DNA of 64,000 nucleotides from a phage: sequence record NC_129898.1; one strand, written 5' to 3'. Both the position numbers and the translations under genes were made by a program. Below the pieces are notes generated by a model. It was not told the origin of the DNA, did no database searches, and saw only the letters and a list, made by a program, of their open reading frames with translations. Positions 5,732 through 30,795 of this stretch are shown here, piece after piece; the first letter of the stretch is position 1; each line of letters starts with the position of its first letter.

Positions 5732-8155
5732 ATGAGTATGTGGTCTTTCGATCTGGAGGCCTCTGGCTTGCTGGAAGATCCAGATCTTTATTATCACTGC
5801 GGTTTGTTTAAAGAGCTGAATAAGAACCGTTTTATGCTGTTCCTTCCTCTAAATGACCGCACACACTACTCGGAAGAGGATGTAGAGAAGGCTAAGAACT
5901 TTATTCTGGCAAAGAGAACTCTTTATAAAGATTTTGAGGTTCGCATAGCAGATTTTTCAGAGTTGGAAGGTTGGCTTACAGGCAACTCAGACTGGTCACC
6001 TACGGCTTTGAACTGTCATAACTGCTACAGCTATGACTTTATGCTGATGGAAAGATTATCCGGTGTTCATTTTGATATGTTCCGTGATCCTAAATGTATG
6101 GGGACTATTAACGACCACCAGGTTAATCTGTTTGATACGTTGGCGATGAGTCGAATCTTGTGGCCTGACCGCCCTTTGCCAAAAGGTTGTCCGGACGCAG
6201 TATTCAATCCAGTTACCAAGAAAATGCAGCCTGTTGGGCCTCATGGCCTTATGGCATGGGGCTATGCCCTTGGTAACCAGAAAGTTCAAATCGATGACTG
6301 GCGTGAGCTTCCGCTGTGGAAGTATGTGGATCGTGTGTTCGAGGACGTTATCATCCAGGAGTTGCTCTGGAAAGAGTTGGTAGCGGAATCAAAAGGTGTA
6401 TTCTACGGCAAATCTGACATGCAGAACTTTATGTATGACCCTGCCAAAGAGAAGCCTAAAGGATTCAAGAAGATTACCTGGAAGAATGCATTACGCCGAG
6501 GCATGCTGCAGCATTTCCTGATGGAGCTGCAGGCTCGACAGGGTGTGTATTTCGACATAGATGGGGCTATTGCTTTACGTGACCGCTGCGATGCGTGGAT
6601 GAAAGAGATCGCTGATCGTGTTGAACCACAACTTCCTTTAAAAGAGTTATCAATGTCTCAGCGGCCTAAGTTCCCTGAAAAGCCGTTTAACCAGGATGGG
6701 ACAATCTCCAATAATGGTTGGAAATGGTTAAAAGACAAGCTTGGCTATCCTGTGGATATGAGCGCTTTAGAGTTCAAAGCTCCTCCTAAGCGAGCATTTA
6801 CCTCCACAGGGGATGTCAGTAAAATGGGGATAAAATGGTGTGAAGAGATGGGCTGTAAAGACCCAGATAAGATGGCTGATTTCTTGAGAGGGTATATCAA
6901 AGGAACTTCTACACCACACCCTTTACCTAAAGAGCTAATGGATCAGGCAATAAGTGACCTACAGCAGAAGCGAATGCCTGACTGCAAGATACCTATGAAA
7001 ATCAGCAATCAGGACGACATCAAGCGATACCTGATCAGTGCTGGTTGGCTCCCAACAATGTGGAGAACTAAGGATGTAACTAAAGACAGCAAGAAGAAAG
7101 CTCTGCCTGATGCTGATGTTGATGCACGAGTATATGCATATATGGACGAGCTTTTAGAGTCAGAGTATTGTGACCTAATTATCAACTTCTGGAACAAAAC
7201 TGATGCTAAGTTTCAGACAACCGTGCACAAGTTCCGAAGCTTCCCTAACTCAGAAAGGATTAAAAAGGAAGTGTTTGGGAAGATACGTAGAAAAGCCAGA
7301 GCGCTTATTACTTCTCCGCAACTGAAAGATACGTTTGGACACCTATGTCCGAATCTTGAAAAGTTGAACGGAGAGATGGCTAAAGATATCGTCTTGTGGT
7401 TATCCTTGCGAAACCGTAGATCGGTCCTTGATCCAATCAAGGAGGATAAGGTTGATACTGGTCTTCTTAATCATCCACGTTTGAAGATTGACCATAAGCT
7501 TCCTGCTAAAAGTTCTGGATTAACAAACACTTCCAGACAGAAACACAGCATTTGTGCAAACATGCCTAAACCATCTCCTAAAGTGGTTATGGGTAAAGAG
7601 ATGCGTAGTCTGTGGGGTGTTCCTCCAGGATACTTTGAGATCGGTATTGACGGGTCCAACTTAGAGCAGCTTATCGGGGCTTGGGGTGCCTTTGAGTTCG
7701 ACAACGGCCTGTACTATGATGTTGTAAGTAACGGGGACGCGCACCAAAACAATGCTGAGGCATATACAAAGGTAGCAGGTAGGGAGGTGTCTCGTAACGA
7801 TGGTAAACCTATCACGTATGGGGTTATGTATGGGGCACAAAAAGATAAAGTTGCAGATATGCTGGATATCTCTCCAGAGCTGGGGCAGAGAGTAATCGAT
7901 GCTCTCTGGGATGCCAACCCAGGCCTTAAGGGGCGTAAAGAGGATCTGGAGAAATTCTGGGAAGCAACAGGTAAGAAATTTATCTACTCTTTTGACGGTC
8001 ATGCCATTTGGACCCGCTCTAAACACTCTTTGCTTAATGCATATCAGCAAAATGGCGGTGCATCGTTGTGCGACTTGGTCGGAATCCTCATGCACCACCA
8101 AATGGTGAAGCGTGGATGGTATGATGAGGGTGTTCGTCGTATTATTTATTACCAT
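5732..8155 (+). CDS. DNA polymerase, family A (T7-like), exon 1
   Basis: FDLEASGL exo motif; GIDGSNLEQL (motif A) and RNDGKPITYGVMYG (motif B) align to T7 gp5; frame stops just before expected motif C. Confidence 0.85.
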
Positions 8156-8483
8156 AAATAACATTGTGGCTTCGTGCAGTGATGCACGTCGAAAACCTCT
8201 TTAATTGACGGGAAGGCTAAGTTGACTTTTACACCTAAACATGGTAAAAGCTCAATATGCTAATCCGCAGCGAAGCATCCGAGAGGATGAACGTTCAGAG
8301 ACTATCGAAAGCATAGCTCCAACACAGTTTGGGGTGAAGAAGCGAGTAGAGTAGGCCAGCAAGTGCGGTCGAAATGAGAGGTGCCTTGGTAACAAGGCAG
8401 TGAGATAGTCCGATCCATACGGGAAACTGTATGGCTATGCACGTAATGGTGCGGGGTAGCTTAACGACCTACCTGAACTATTG
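8156..8483 (+). ncRNA. group I self-splicing intron (ORF-less) in DNA polymerase gene
   Basis: 328 nt break between YYH and DEYQ; exon ends in U, intron ends in G; UUGUGG guide can pair CCAU|AA; P7-like CAGAGACUA (8296-8304) and UAGUCC (8406-8411). Confidence 0.65.
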
Positions 8484-27599: not shown

Positions 27600-27863
27600 A
27601 TGAAACGCCTTGATCAGCTCAAACTAGTTCAGTACATGGCCTACAAAGTTATTGAAGTCCAAAAAGGTAGTAAAAAGGAGGTTTGCGAGAAAGCGTACAA
27701 GATCTTTACTCGTAAAAAAGATGATTGGATGTTGCGCCAGACCAAAAAGGCTGATATCCTGGGGTACCTGGAAGAAGAGATCCGGCTTGAAGAGCAAGAA
27801 GAGATCCGCCGAAGTGAGGCAGATTATCAGGCAGCTTGGGAAAGCTGGATGAGCAACAAATAG
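27600..27863 (+). CDS. hypothetical small protein
   Basis: AAAGAGGA RBS; last gene of + arm. Confidence 0.5.
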   Translation: MKRLDQLKLVQYMAYKVIEVQKGSKKEVCEKAYKIFTRKKDDWMLRQTKKADILGYLEEEIRLEEQEEIRRSEADYQAAWESWMSNK

Positions 27864-27877
27864 TACAACATTATCAA

Positions 27878-27906
27878 GGGGCCTTAAGGCCCCTTTCTTT
27901 TTTGTT
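27878..27906 (+). terminator. intrinsic terminator ending the + strand arm
   Basis: GGGGCC-TTAA-GGCCCC hairpin followed by TTTCTTTTTTGTTTT. Confidence 0.7.
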
Positions 27907-28511
27907 TTCTCTTTTCCTACCATAAACGGCCCCGCCTGGCAAGTGGAATAATTAACGAGCCATCAATCCCGCACACTGTACAAATATACATGTAAAATAG
28001 TTATTGCATAACCTTTCATTGTGTGGTAGCGGTGCTATTTTTACCTGTTTTCTCTCCCAAAATTGCACGTAATGCAGCTATTGCACAAAATTTAACCTGA
28101 TGCACATCTTCAGTATACTGTCAACAATTAAAAACCCTTATAAGTCATACACTTACACAAACCAAAAAGCGCGTCCTACGTGAAAAATCGGGTGTAACTA
28201 TAGCCGACAGATCTCAGAATCCACGTACGATCACCATTCTATAGCCTGCAAAGTATTTATTCCAACCACAGAATAACGGAATAGTCAATACCTGTACAAA
28301 ATAATTATTCGTACAAACTGCATAACATAAACCTGCCCAGGTGTCAACATTTTTCGTAAACAGTTAGAAATTGTCACGATAGGTTACTATAATCAGAGAA
28401 ATATTTAGTCGTCTAATGTTTACTGTACATAACTATACTGACTGGAATCATTAGATGACTAAGAGAAAGATAAGAAATAGTTAACAATGTAATTGTTTTA
28501 CCTGTAACAAT

Positions 28512-28688
28512 AAGGCAACTATGCAAACGAATGGCATGGCGCGACGGAGTCGCGACATAATATAAAAGCAGTAACAATCACCCCCGTGATAGTTTGTCTG
28601 CAATCTATTAATCAGATCATAGTTGCCTTGTATTTAGTTAATCATGACATAACAAGCAAGGCAACTATAGATCTTCTAATAGTTGCCC
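28512..28688. repeat. paired inverted repeats AAGGCAACTAT / ATAGTTGCC
   Basis: AAGGCAACTAT at 28512 and 28658; reverse complement at 28619 and 28679; palindrome GCGAC-GGA-GTCGC at 28541. Confidence 0.6.
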
Positions 28689-28761
28689 TGCTTTTATATT
28701 ATGTCATAGAAACGCCCGAAGGGGTGACCTAGTCACCTGGCATAGCCAGCGAAATATTATT

Positions 28762-28821
28762 AACTTGTTAATTGTCAGCTTGTTGGCTGTTAGCTTGTCA
28801 ATTGTTAACTTGCTAATTGTT
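28762..28821. repeat. tandem 15-bp repeats (4 units)
   Basis: CTTGTTAATTGTCAG / CTTGTTGGCTGTTAG / CTTGTCAATTGTTAA / CTTGCTAATTGTTAA, contiguous. Confidence 0.65.
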
Positions 28822-30459
28822 AAACTCGGGAGCATAGCCCTCGTCTCAAGGGTGTTATCATGCAAACGAATGTCATGGCTTATCATCTATGCGTAAACTG
28901 TCAGGGTGTAGACTATTCAGGCGTAAACAGTCTATGCGGGAACAATCTATACGTGAACAGTGAAATATGAAATAATAACAGTCGTTATTGTATCGAAAGT
29001 GTATAAGGTGTCAGATTATGGCATATTGTGTGACATTGTGTCAGACAAGTTTTTCTCCTCTTTGTCAAGTGCTGCATGGAAAATTTACAATCTGGTATGG
29101 TAGCATTTTTGCGGCCCTGTTTACATTCAGGAGTGTATGTATAACCCTTGTTGTGTGGGCGTTTAGACGTCTGGACGGTCAGAAGTCTGCAGGTTAATAT
29201 CTAATCTATTGGTCGCTAACTATATCCCCCACAAATAATAAGAAATGCAATTGTTATATGCGTAAACAGTAACTCATGTTATCAATCCCTGTATGTATCG
29301 CCAGTGGTGCGCATAATGGGTATTATGTTAAATTGCCCGTAATGATAACAGTTCTCACAATGATAGGTATTCTCATTCACCCCCACAAAATAGATTGCAA
29401 ATGTTGTGCCACTGTGTGAACGGCCTCGCCTATTAATTTGCCTCACTGCTCCGATATTTGAGAATTGTTATAAGAATGAGAAGTATTCCCATTTCGTCCG
29501 CCTGGCAGCGCTCCTGTAGGTCAGGTCAAAATCGTGGTAGAACTGGACCCCTTCAGATATTTCTAGCTGACTCTTCAGGCCTGTGTGGGAAAAGCCAACC
29601 TCTCCGGCGGGGCAGGGGGGTCAATTAAAAAATTTACGTAGGGTACGAAGCGCTCTTCAGGTAAGGCATGTATTAGAGGATGAAACCCTCTTCAGGTGAT
29701 GATATTTGTGGGTGTGATATTTGCTGGAAAGCCAGATATGACGGGACTACCGGCGGGGATGGGGTAGTATAGGCAGGGAAAATGTGGAGAATGTGGTTGG
29801 TAAATTTATCAGGCAGGTAGAGTATGGGATATGTTACAGGTATGTTAAATATGGAGGTAGGATATTTGTAAGATTTGTGTGTAAAATCAAAGACTTAAGT
29901 GGTGTTGTGGTATTTTCTATAAATAATTCAAGTTTAATAGGTAATATTTGTCTCTATCCACTTTGTGGGGTAAACAGATTCTAATTGAATTGGTTTACAA
30001 GTGTATATAAAGTATACAAATTAAAGATATAAGAAACCCCCCTCCCCCTTCGGCTACCATTCACCTTTTCCTCTGACTGGTACTTAAACACTTATTCAGA
30101 CTCTTCAGGTTATCACCCATATACTATATGGCAGTGACTGGTGTCCTCTGGCCCCTCTTTCGTCACCCGTCCGCTTCGCCATGCTAATGCCATAGCTAAA
30201 GGTTCGGTTGTTCACCCTGTTCACTCAGGTGTATCTCCATACCCCTTCAAACCGAAGAGAACAGAAAACCCGAATTACTCGGTAAAAGAAAAGAGAAGAA
30301 CTTAATTTTATCAGGATAGGCAAGAATGTCAAGGCATGACTGCTCACTAAACAAGCAAACAGTCATGTGTGGGAGGTAAGTGATTGTGGTGGTAGGAAAT
30401 TTAGTTGAAAGATGTGTTATAGGTGCTTCCAGCACTTTAGCCGGGCAGCTAATTGTGTG

Positions 30460-30675
30460 TCAGTCCAGCGGTTCATCCTCTACTTCACTGAAATCGATGT
30501 TCAGGGTCTCTTCCCAACCATCGATCTCAGCACAAGAGTGGAGTTCTTTAGGGTTTACTCCCAAAGCCTCAGCAACAGCGTCTATATTTAACACCTCTGG
30601 CAGGTATGATTCATCAAATTCAAGGTAAATCAGGCCACGAGTGTTGTCAGCTCCACCAAATATTTCTATCTTCAT
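30460..30675 (-). CDS. hypothetical small protein (MKIEI family)
   Basis: Starts MKIEIFGG; last gene of - arm. Confidence 0.45.
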   Translation of the reverse strand: MKIEIFGGADNTRGLIYLEFDESYLPEVLNIDAVAEALGVNPKELHSCAEIDGWEETLNIDFSEVEDEPLD

Positions 30676-30795
30676 AAAATCTCCTCTGGAAATGAGAGTG
30701 TGAACAGGGTTATACGTTCCAATGCGCAGGAATTTATATACGTTTGCCTCTTCAGGCCATGCTTTAGCATGATAAACTTATGTGGGCTCGGTGCT

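What the first reader, a model, noticed from the sequence alone, without database searches (positions are those of the whole stretch)
27907..30459. 2.5 kb repeat-dense non-coding zone where the two arms converge
No credible gene. It holds paired inverted repeats AAGGCAACTAT/ATAGTTGCC (28512-28688), palindromes GCGAC-GGA-GTCGC and GGTGAC-CTA-GTCACC, four contiguous 15-bp units (28762-28821), GCGTAAAC(A/T)GTC repeats (28890-28960, 29261), CTCTTCAGG four times (29571, 29653, 29688, 30101), and G-rich CCGGCGGGG twice. Iteron-like repeats in AT-rich DNA suggest a replication origin; alternatively this is the packaging region or the genome end in a circularised assembly.
Basis: seen in the sequence. 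Interest (0 to 1): 0.7.

Follow-up and report, generated by a model that had tools for sequence, protein, structure and literature searches.

The report
Phage genome ends and terminal repeat
This gene-free, repeat-rich stretch is where the linear chromosome of an rV5-like E. coli phage begins and ends, and its central 459 bases are the short repeat found at both ends of the packaged DNA; this is already published for the genus, so the finding is real but largely ordinary.

Summary
Every listed repeat is present and locally enriched, and no ORF in 27907-30459 behaves like a gene across 17 relatives.

The window is a Vequintavirus (rV5/FV3-like). Window 29044-29502 is the 459-bp direct terminal repeat (DTR) of the virion DNA:
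- It maps exactly onto the repeat_region annotated at both ends of phage Gotham.
- Eight records start or end exactly on this block, and two more start at 29502.
- Published 2x coverage supports it for Gotham, and 458-bp terminal redundancies are reported for EdH4 and HdK5.
- A Mydovirus (KPP-1) has a 514-bp DTR in the same kind of ORF-poor convergent zone, with a similar right-boundary motif.

The origin reading is untested, and the anatomy argues against it.

Anatomy:
- a copy-number-variable repeat array ends exactly at the left boundary;
- the DTR length is fixed (457-460 bp);
- an indel hotspot lies just past the right boundary;
- CTCTTCAGG/G-run modules follow, then the most G-skewed tract of the window;
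- a 270-nt non-coding block stays 97-99% identical behind an invariant sigma70 promoter. This block is the one unexplained element.

Novelty: already known. Interest is low to moderate.

The parts
27876..27895 (+). Intrinsic terminator closing the left (+ strand) gene arm: AAGGGGCC-TTAA-GGCCCCTT followed by a T-run
   Evidence: Terminator scan finds 8 pairs with 6 GC. The hairpin is kept with a variable loop in relatives. Murica annotates a terminator at the same place.
27907..28494 (.). Proximal left non-coding stretch. It is AT-rich (GC 0.30-0.39) with C>G on the + strand and has no assigned element.
   Evidence: Composition. It is 86-95% conserved. ORFs are not conserved as coding. In 11 of 18 genomes a 139-aa gene is inserted just upstream, after 27870.
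28495..28715 (.). Composite palindrome: four ATAGTTGCC arms, perfect 18-nt outer arms at 28554-28571 / 28688-28705, and a GCGCGAC-GGA-GTCGCGC hairpin. The inner hairpin 28654-28693 plus a T-rich tail looks like a second-line terminator.
   Evidence: Inverted repeats I1, I4, I10 and I18. As ssDNA it folds at -46.5 kcal/mol with z = -9.1. Stems are invariant in 15 of 16 genomes, with substitutions and a 33-nt insertion confined to loops. Murica annotates 28656-28691 as a terminator. The element is absent from FV3, so it is dispensable.
28756..28823 (+). 15-bp tandem array (ATTGTTAACTTGTTA, 4.5 copies) that varies in copy number
   Evidence: TRF. Relatives carry between none and about 5 units.
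28886..29043 (+). Hypervariable terminal array. Degenerate units with a roughly 15-nt period and a GTRAACWGT core (1-5 exact-core copies per genome, plus degenerate ones) are followed by RTGTCA units at roughly 11-nt spacing. The last unit ends exactly at the DTR boundary. This is a candidate terminase recognition array.
   Evidence: Over 28700-29036, mean pairwise identity is 0.475, against 0.945 for the DTR.
29037..29049 (+). Left terminus motif TRTGTCA|GACAAG. The genome's left end starts at 29044.
   Evidence: GTCA|GACAAG is invariant in 18 of 18 genomes, and sequence identity switches from variable to invariant here. Records begin or end exactly here.
29044..29502 (.). The 459-bp direct terminal repeat (DTR). 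It is present once in this collapsed assembly and at both ends of virion DNA.
   Evidence: Gotham's repeat_region 1-459 is identical to its 136567-137025 and maps to window 29502..29044. Eight records start or end exactly on this block, and two more start at 29502. Literature. Length is 457-460 bp in 18 genomes.
29062..29091 (+). Conserved element about 20 bp inside the left end: TTGTCAAG, 17 nt, AATTTACAA (a sigma70-like TTGTCA-18-TACAAT in this window)
   Evidence: Promoter scan scores 10 of 12. The same element sits at the same offset in the Mydovirus KPP-1 DTR. However, the last base of the -10 is T in only 7 of 18 genomes, so it may be a protein-binding site rather than a promoter.
29496..29511 (+). 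Right terminus motif GTCCGCC|TGGCAGCGC. The genome's right end stops at 29502.
   Evidence: Near-invariant in 18 genomes. KPP-1 has GTCCGTC|TAGCACCGC at its published boundary, 13 of 16 identical. Records bov10K2 and bov22_2 start here.
29512..29560 (.). Indel hotspot just outside the right boundary. Insertions of up to about 70 nt are flanked by CTCCTGTAGGT repeats.
29569..29765 (+). Same-strand motif modules: CTCTTCAGG at 29571, 29653 and 29688, with CCGGCGGGG-N2-GGGG at 29604 and 29750. Further CTCTTCAGG copies lie at 30101 and 30748.
   Evidence: Copies are conserved in relatives, 3-4 per genome. KPP-1 has CTTCAG motifs and G-runs right of its DTR.
29600..30000 (+). The most G-skewed tract of the whole window (77 G against 16 C in 29700-29950). 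On the - strand the RNA would be C-rich and G-poor, which is rut-like.
30030..30298 (-). Ultra-conserved non-coding block, a candidate transcript of about 270 nt from the promoter below
   Evidence: Over the wider stretch 30030-30459, mean pairwise identity is 0.984, against 0.94-0.96 for the neighbouring genes. For 30030-30298 itself, identity is 0.974 in the divergent IMG/VR genome whose right arm is 0.83-0.85. ORFs in it evolve non-synonymously. There is no Rfam hit and the fold z-score is -1.27.
30305..30332 (-). Sigma70 promoter TTGACA-16-(TG)TAAAAT pointing toward the DTR
   Evidence: 11 of 12 match with an extended -10. Both hexamers are invariant in 18 of 18 genomes, while the spacer carries 4 different changes including a 2-nt insertion.

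Best explanation
The zone is the terminal region of a linear phage chromosome, displayed as one continuous stretch because the assembly collapsed the two ends.

**Layout.** Virion DNA begins at window 29044 and, after running round the whole genome, ends at 29502. The 459 bp between these points are therefore carried at both ends as a short direct terminal repeat. The 1.18 kb on the left (27864-29043) is the untranslated tail in front of the right-hand repeat copy. The 0.96 kb on the right (29503-30459) is the untranslated head behind the left-hand copy. Both gene arms are transcribed outward toward the ends.

**Transcription stops (partly inferred).** The left arm stops at an intrinsic terminator (27876-27895), with the hairpin cluster at 28495-28715 behind it. 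The right arm has no good hairpin terminator. It runs instead into RNA that would be C-rich and G-poor (29600-30000), which I infer is a Rho-dependent stop.

**Packaging (inferred by analogy).** In replicating concatemers this zone is the junction. By analogy with T7-type packaging, terminase recognises sites here and cuts at two fixed positions 459 bp apart, TRTGTCA|GACAAG and GTCCGCC|TGGCAGC. The repeat is duplicated by DNA synthesis so that each packaged genome gets a copy at both ends. The phased repeat arrays that abut the boundaries are the likeliest protein landing pads. These are RTGTCA and GTRAACWGT on the left, and CTCTTCAGG with G-runs on the right.

**Shown:** the position and length of the repeat, the sharp conservation boundaries, the absence of genes, and the cross-genus boundary motif.

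**Inferred:** which repeats bind terminase, the cutting and duplication chemistry, and Rho termination.
For: - Identity: 122 phage records match at 90-96%, almost all Vequintavirus.
- Gotham annotates identical 459-bp repeat_regions at both record ends, and they map to window 29502..29044. [quoted passage not shown]
- Korf et al. report 458-bp terminal redundancies for EdH4 and HdK5.
- Eight records from different laboratories (Pr121LW, EdH4, HdK5, EcoIv14a_Aya, ECP2303, ECP2309, YN3, Gotham) start or end exactly on window 29044-29502. bov10K2 and bov22_2 start at 29502.
- The boundaries coincide with abrupt changes in conservation. A hypervariable array runs up to 29036, the DTR is 0.945 identical with a length fixed at 457-460 bp, and an indel hotspot begins about 20 nt (29521) after 29502.
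- KPP-1 (a different genus) has a published 514-bp DTR with T7-type PhageTerm classification. It lies in a 1.8-kb ORF-poor zone between convergent arms. Its right boundary motif matches 13 of 16, and a left-end element sits at the same offset.
- No gene lies in the zone.
- In ICP1, a phage cited in the rV5 paper among the homologs of the rV5 DNA polymerase, termini lie in a 1.3-kb ORF-less space with PhageTerm peaks 460 bp apart.
Against: - No reads exist for this window, so the termini are placed by homology, not measured.
- The rV5 paper calls the genome circularly permuted. PhageTerm runs on other vequintaviruses reported 'circular permutated' (Nextera libraries) or headful packaging with partial permutation.
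- The role of each repeat family is unproven. FV3 lacks the palindrome and the 15-bp array yet is a viable phage.
- The DTR-internal promoter-like element lacks the critical -10 T in 11 of 18 genomes.
Confidence: 0.85

Rival explanations
1. The zone is, or also contains, a replication origin. Either phage or host initiators bind the direct repeats next to AT-rich DNA, or a transcript crossing the extreme G-skew tract forms an R-loop that primes DNA synthesis. This could be the start of late rolling-circle replication that feeds packaging.
For: - Several direct-repeat families lie in DNA of 30-39% GC.
- The 29600-30000 tract is the most G-skewed in the window and is followed by 30-33% GC DNA.
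- In ICP1 the late rolling-circle coverage peak coincides with the termini in its ORF-less region.
- From my own knowledge, the T7 phage promoters phiOL and phiOR near the genome ends act as secondary origins. phiOL just inside the terminal repeat is mentioned.
Against: - The candidate iterons vary from 1 to 5 exact-core copies, and the 15-bp array and palindrome are deleted in FV3.
- No Rep-like gene is evident next to the zone (not searched exhaustively). The two flanking small proteins tested have no Pfam domain.
- The cumulative GC skew peaks here rather than bottoming out, and it tracks transcription direction.
- ICP1's early theta origin lies far from its termini.
- There are no replication data for this genus.
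Confidence: 0.2
2. Part of the zone is a non-coding RNA gene. The invariant sigma70 promoter at 30332-30305 drives an RNA of about 270 nt (30298 to about 30030, - strand) whose sequence is under very strong constraint. The RNA would act in regulation, packaging or anti-defence. This does not exclude the terminal-region explanation.
For: - Promoter hexamers are invariant in 18 of 18 genomes while the spacer varies.
- Conservation rises to 97-99% exactly downstream of the promoter, even in a genome whose flanking genes are 83-85% identical.
- The few changes are not coding-like.
Against: - There is no Rfam match at E<=1.
- Predicted folding is not better than shuffles, z = -1.27.
- No clear terminator marks the 3' end.
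- There is too little variation to test covariation.
- The block is absent from the Mydovirus KPP-1 zone.
- The constraint could be on DNA, for example a terminase-binding site.
Confidence: 0.3
3. The phage packages by the headful mechanism from a pac site in this zone. Genomes would be circularly permuted, and the '459-bp repeat' would be a coverage or assembly artefact.
For: The rV5 paper states the genome is circularly permuted. PhageTerm called bov phages 'circular permutated' and BpE1AUH headful.
Against: - Identical boundaries appear in 10 records from several laboratories.
- 2x coverage and a fixed start sequence are reported for Gotham.
- The repeat length is constant at 457-460 bp across 18 genomes, and conservation breaks fall at both boundaries.
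- A cognate boundary motif is present in another genus with a T7-type call.
- The bov libraries were Nextera. From my own knowledge, transposase libraries blur termini.
Confidence: 0.07
4. The zone is mostly non-functional spacer: decayed genes plus accumulated small mobile hairpin cassettes, tolerated because no transcription unit crosses it.
For: - Indels are frequent.
- A 139-aa gene is present or absent at the left edge.
- Small hairpin cassettes occur at different sites in different genomes.
- FV3 carries a 350-bp deletion.
Against: Outside the hotspots the zone is as conserved as, or more conserved than, the flanking genes. Against the divergent genome the figures are NC-left 0.91, NC-right 0.92 and the block 0.97, compared with 0.83-0.88 for genes. 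Palindrome stems are invariant with changes only in loops.
Confidence: 0.1

Closest known systems
Short direct terminal repeats of other Vequintavirus and Vequintavirinae phages: Gotham 459 bp, EdH4 and HdK5 458 bp, Mydovirus KPP-1 514 bp
   Same: The sequence is the same block at 93-97% identity for the Vequintavirus records, with the same boundaries. For KPP-1 the architecture is shared (convergent arms, an ORF-poor zone, a DTR of about 0.5 kb), along with a similar right-boundary motif and left-end element.
   Different: For the genus there is no essential difference: this is the same feature in another isolate. In KPP-1 the flanks are not alignable, the right flank is only about 330 bp, and the ultra-conserved 270-nt block is missing.
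T7/T3 concatemer junction (T7-type DTR packaging)
   Same: Both have a short exact terminal repeat present once per junction in concatemers, fixed ends, and promoters close to the repeat. From my own knowledge (Dunn & Studier 1983), short repeat arrays (SRL/SRR) flank the T7 repeat. In T7, transcription toward the junction is coupled to maturation. KPP-1 was classed as T7-type by PhageTerm.
   Different: This is a 137-kb myovirus with host-type promoters and no phage RNA polymerase signal. Its repeat is 459 bp against 160-230 bp. Both ends are gene-free for about 1 kb, and genes point outward at both ends. There is no sequence similarity. Terminase type was not examined because the gene lies outside the window.
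ICP1 (Vibrio phage) ORF-less packaging region
   Same: ICP1 is cited in the rV5 paper among the homologs of the rV5 DNA polymerase. Its termini sit in a 1.3-kb ORF-less space, with two cut positions 460 bp apart in one analysis and 577 bp in another.
   Different: ICP1 was interpreted as headful pac packaging, and its late rolling-circle start maps there. No sequence comparison was made here.
Iteron-type replication origins (plasmids; the PLE non-coding region)
   Same: Both are long non-coding regions with several direct-repeat families in lower-GC DNA.
   Different: There is no evident initiator gene. The repeats vary in number or are dispensable. The repeats abut mapped genome termini. There are no replication data.
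phi29 pRNA gene (own knowledge)
   Same: Both involve a small non-coding transcript made from a host-type promoter near a genome end and reading toward that end.
   Different: There is no sequence or Rfam similarity. The block lies 0.5-0.8 kb from the repeat. The packaging chemistry differs (DTR against protein-primed ends). Transcription has not been shown.

Membership tests
Short direct terminal repeat (fixed-end, T7-type) genome termini | The same sequence is present at both ends of virion DNA | tested here: met
   Met by homology only. The window block 29044-29502 equals the identical 459-bp repeat_regions at both ends of Gotham, and it occurs at two places (both ends) in EdH4, HdK5, ECP2309 and YN3.
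Short direct terminal repeat (fixed-end, T7-type) genome termini | Fixed, sequence-specific termini (read-start pile-ups, 2x coverage over the repeat) | not testable with these tools
   No reads are available for this window. Published for relatives: 2x coverage and a fixed start for Gotham, 2x coverage plus PhageTerm for KPP-1. Conflicting 'permuted' calls appear.
Short direct terminal repeat (fixed-end, T7-type) genome termini | Conserved boundary sequences and constant repeat length among relatives | tested here: met
   GTCA|GACAAG is invariant in 18 of 18 genomes, and GTCCGCC|TGGCAGC is invariant in 17 of 18 (one genome has A for the first T after the cut). Length is 457-460 bp. KPP-1's right boundary matches 13 of 16.
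Iteron-type replication origin | Three or more regularly spaced direct repeats conserved in number and phase | tested here: not met
   Repeats exist, but copy number ranges from 1 to 5 exact-core copies, and the 15-bp array is absent in some genomes, including FV3.
Iteron-type replication origin | A cognate initiator gene adjacent, or a known initiator binding motif | tested here: inconclusive
   The flanking small proteins tested have no Pfam domain. No systematic search for initiator motifs was done.
Iteron-type replication origin | Demonstrated initiation (marker frequency, autonomous or infection-dependent replication) | not testable with these tools
   No data were found for the genus in the literature searches.
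Headful pac site with circular permutation | Imprecise, distributed ends and terminal redundancy of several percent | tested here: not met
   Ten records share base-exact boundaries 459 bp apart, 0.3% of the genome. The literature is split.
Known RNA families (Rfam 15) | A covariance-model match at or near the gathering score | tested here: not met
   The only hit in 27800-30700 at E<=1 is a sub-threshold match (20.6 against 39 bits) on the terminator hairpin 27854-27902. There are no tRNA or tmRNA genes.

The most novel reading that the evidence does not exclude
The 270-nt block at 30030-30298, invariant across the genus and driven by its own invariant sigma70 promoter that points at the terminal repeat, encodes a previously undescribed phage non-coding RNA that acts at the genome end (in packaging, end protection or replication priming). 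Together with the neighbouring extreme G-skew tract, it would mark a transcription-dependent origin or maturation site in a large myovirus.
Probability: 0.2. Interest if true: 0.6.

Novelty: already known. Interest (0 to 1): 0.3.

Why it matters
Practically, the result says where the real ends of rV5-like genomes lie. Most of the roughly 120 deposited records, and the type-phage paper, treat the genome as circularly permuted and open it arbitrarily. They leave a 2.5-kb 'non-coding' box unexplained.

Placing the 459-bp terminal repeat in that box has three uses:
- it fixes a natural coordinate origin for the genus;
- it explains why no genes lie there and why both arms end there;
- it points to specific short motifs as candidates for terminase recognition and cutting.

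This is useful for engineering these broad-host-range therapeutic phages, for example when deciding where cargo can be inserted and what must be kept. The ultra-conserved promoter-plus-270-nt block is a concrete, cheap target for RNA-seq or deletion experiments. None of this is a conceptual surprise.

Tried and rejected
- **Rfam:** the gathering-threshold scan of the whole window and the E<=1 scan of the zone found only a group I intron elsewhere and a sub-threshold hit on the terminator hairpin.
- **tRNA/tmRNA scan:** nothing found.
- **Coding tests:** all ORFs of 27 aa or more in the zone fail them. The micro-ORFs beginning ATGCAAACGAATG at 28521 and 28860 are not conserved. The second is intact in 4 of 15 genomes. 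The shared 20-mer is instead the pair of direct repeats that bounds the FV3 deletion.
- **RNA folding of the conserved block:** not significant on either strand, z = -1.27 and -0.15.
- **Covariation:** not testable because the stems do not vary.
- **Host homology of 29503-30459:** no match in 5,426 E. coli genomes.
- **More divergent relatives:** the IMG/VR scan with the flanking 71-aa protein gave only 3 loci, one usefully divergent. blastn in distant mode found nothing outside the genus.
- **nhmmer against KPP-1:** profiles of the flanks found nothing. Only the DTR profile gave weak hits.
- **Synteny idea dropped:** I first thought the 87-aa genes flanking the zone in this window and in KPP-1 were homologous because they have equal length. 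BLASTP shows no similarity, so no synteny claim is made.
- **Left-end promoter downgraded:** I first read the DTR-internal TTGTCA-18-TACAAT as a conserved early promoter. The essential last T of the -10 is present in only 7 of 18 genomes, so it is now described as a 'conserved element, possibly a binding site'.
- **Literature:** searches for rV5-group transcriptomes or origin mapping found nothing.
Full report
**What the window is.** The 3.5 kb around the finding matches 122 phage records at 90-96% identity. Almost all are Vequintavirus, the rV5/FV3-like E. coli myoviruses of about 137 kb. Genes on the left of the window are on the + strand and genes on the right are on the - strand, so the two arms converge. 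The last + strand gene stops at 27863 and the first - strand gene stops at 30460. The rV5 genome paper already drew a grey 'non-coding' box with no ORFs at this spot, between genes 163 and 164. It noted that the expected bidirectional terminators were not found there. It attributed the skew change to transcription orientation and called the genome circularly permuted.

**Checking the observation.**
- CTCTTCAGG occurs 8 times in the window against 0.39 expected, all on the + strand. Five copies lie within 29571-30756.
- GCGTAAACWGT occurs 6 times against 1.4 expected.
- CCGGCGGGG occurs twice against 0.05 expected.
- The four AAGGCAACTAT arms are present.
- The 15-bp tandem has 4.5 copies.
- Further direct and inverted repeats were found.

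I aligned the zone from 16, and later 18, genomes. No ORF inside it shows the third-codon-position bias seen in the control gene 30460-30675, which gives 5/3/22 variable columns by codon position. Most ORFs are interrupted in relatives. ORFs in the best-conserved part change mostly non-synonymously. 'No credible gene' is therefore confirmed. 'AT-rich' applies only to the left half.

**What it is.** A blastn search showed that several records begin or end inside the zone at the same base. Phage Gotham annotates a repeat_region at 1-459 and again at 136567-137025. The two copies are identical and map to window 29502..29044. Searching with window 29044-29502 showed that this block sits at position 1-459, or at the last 459 bases, of Pr121LW, EdH4, HdK5, EcoIv14a_Aya, ECP2303, ECP2309, YN3 and Gotham. 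Four of these, besides Gotham, carry it at two places. bov10K2 and bov22_2 start at the other boundary, 29502.

The literature agrees. [quoted passage not shown] So window 29044-29502 is the direct terminal repeat (DTR) of the virion chromosome. The window comes from an assembly in which the two copies were collapsed.

**Internal evidence for the boundaries.** The alignment shows sharp transitions exactly at the two ends of the block.
- Left of 29037, the sequence is a hypervariable array. Mean pairwise identity is 0.475 over 28700-29036.
- From TRTGTCA|GACAAG onward, the sequence is near-invariant. The DTR is 0.945 identical and its length is 457-460 bp in all 18 genomes.
- About 20 nt (29521) past GTCCGCC|TGGCAGC, an indel hotspot begins.

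**A second genus.** Klebsiella phage KPP-1 (Mydovirus, same subfamily) has a published 514-bp DTR with 2x coverage and a T7-type PhageTerm call. In its record the DTR lies in a 1.8-kb ORF-poor zone between convergent arms. Read in the matching orientation:
- its right boundary is GTCCGTC|TAGCACCGC, against GTCCGCC|TGGCAGCGC here (13 of 16 identical);
- its left end carries TTGTCAAG, 17 nt, AATTTACAA at the same offset as in this window;
- a 37-nt island in the middle of the DTR is 81% identical.

The flanks do not align. The architecture, and probably the cutting signals, are therefore subfamily-wide.

**Anatomy of the flanks, left side.**
- An intrinsic terminator at 27876-27895 closes the left arm.
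- An AT-rich stretch follows.
- A composite palindrome at 28495-28715 folds far better than shuffles (z = -9.1). Its stems never vary, and substitutions and a 33-nt insertion fall in loops.
- A 15-bp tandem follows, and then the terminal array. The array consists of degenerate units with a roughly 15-nt period and a GTRAACWGT core, followed by RTGTCA units about 11 nt apart. The last unit ends at the terminus.

FV3 lacks 28521-28870, a deletion between two 20-nt direct repeats. The palindrome and the 15-bp tandem are therefore dispensable.

**Anatomy of the flanks, right side.**
- The indel hotspot comes first.
- Two modules of CTCTTCAGG ... CCGGCGGGG-N2-GGGG follow.
- Next is the most G-skewed tract of the entire window, with 77 G against 16 C in 29700-29950.
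- A block at 30030-30298 is 97-99% identical in every genome. That includes an IMG/VR contig whose neighbouring genes are only 83-85% identical.
- Directly upstream of that block, on the - strand, lies an 11/12 sigma70 promoter. Its hexamers are invariant in 18 of 18 genomes while its spacer varies, including a 2-nt insertion.

**How it most likely works.** The following are shown: the DTR position, its constancy, the gene-free state, and the conserved boundary motifs. The following are inferred.
- As in T7-type phages, concatemers carry one repeat copy per junction. Terminase recognises sites in the flanks and cuts at the two boundaries, and the repeat is duplicated by synthesis.
- The phased arrays touching the boundaries are the best candidates for terminase binding. 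Their variable copy number is typical of arrays where number is not critical.
- In T7, promoters sit next to the repeat and polymerase pausing at the junction is coupled to maturation. The invariant promoter aimed at the DTR may play a comparable part, or it may simply make a small RNA.
- The right arm lacks a hairpin terminator. The C-rich, G-poor RNA that the - strand would produce over 29600-30000 is what a Rho loading site looks like. This would explain the 'missing terminator' noted for rV5 (inference only).

**The origin hypothesis.** Nothing tested here supports it directly.
- The repeats are unstable or dispensable.
- No initiator gene is evident next to the zone (not searched exhaustively).
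- The skew maximum reflects transcription direction.

It is not excluded. ICP1, which the rV5 paper lists among the homologs of the rV5 DNA polymerase, also has its termini in a 1.3-kb ORF-less region, with PhageTerm peaks 460 bp apart. There its late rolling-circle replication appears to start, while its early theta origin is elsewhere. A G-rich transcript over the skewed tract could also form an R-loop. I give an added origin function about 0.2.

**Conflicting evidence.** The rV5 paper and two PhageTerm-based reports describe circular permutation or headful packaging. At least one of these used Nextera transposase libraries, and from my own knowledge these blur termini. The base-exact agreement of ten records, the constant repeat length and the cross-genus motif outweigh these reports. 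Reads for this particular phage were not available, however.

**Verdict.** The feature is already known for the genus, both as a non-coding box (2013) and as 458/459-bp terminal repeats (2019, 2020). I found no paper in these searches that joins the two facts or describes the flank anatomy. The only element that remains truly unexplained is the promoter plus ultra-conserved 270-nt block, together with the adjacent G-skew tract. It has no Rfam match, no significant fold, no host homolog and no counterpart in KPP-1.

Noticed in passing
window 8146-8433 (+), with ORF 5732-8161: A group I intron (RF00028, 75.6 bits) lies at the 3' end of an 809-aa ORF whose product matches family-A DNA polymerase only over profile positions 137-261 of 381. 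The polymerase gene therefore appears to be split by the intron. The rV5 paper reported introns in the terminase gene, not the polymerase.
   Followed up: partly
window 27870/27871; relatives such as L013 228-647 (rV5 ORF 164): Eleven of 18 relatives carry an extra 139-aa gene (about 570 bp) between the last left-arm gene and the non-coding zone. Murica annotates it as 'contains Rel homology domain'. This window, FV3, PMBT16, A142, APCEc02, Gotham and one IMG/VR contig lack it.
   Followed up: partly
window 28521-28540 and 28860-28879: Two 20-nt direct repeats (ATGCAAACGAATGGCATGGC, 95% identical) bound a 340-bp segment that is cleanly deleted in phage FV3. The deletion removes the large palindrome and the 15-bp tandem array.
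   Followed up: yes
window 28708-28757 and 28821-28855; L018 (IMG/VR) near the counterpart of window 30700: Small hairpin-containing cassettes of 33-50 nt occupy different sites in different genomes. The 28713-28754 element occurs 100% identical but inverted in the right arm of an IMG/VR genome. A relative of the 28821-28855 element sits in the apical loop of the palindrome in rV5 and phita32. They look like miniature mobile elements.
   Followed up: partly
search hits MG0656xx (e.g. L012, 'Campylobacter phage A142'): Nineteen GenBank records labelled 'Campylobacter phage' (UNVERIFIED, host C. jejuni) are 90-93% identical to this E. coli Vequintavirus over the zone. The host labels are probably wrong, or the preparations were contaminated.
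   Followed up: no
window 30748-30756, 46937, 54332, 55199: All eight CTCTTCAGG copies in the 64-kb window are on the + strand. One lies in the intergenic gap upstream of the first right-arm gene, and three lie inside right-arm genes, where the - strand reads CCT GAA GAG. The strict strand polarity was not explained.
   Followed up: no
window 29604-29621 and 30036-30053: An 18-nt G-rich and C-rich pair (CCGGCGGGGCAGGGGGGT / ACCCCCCTCCCCCTTCGG, 83% complementary) lies 414 nt apart and brackets the G-skew tract. It could close a long-range stem in a transcript of either strand.
   Followed up: no
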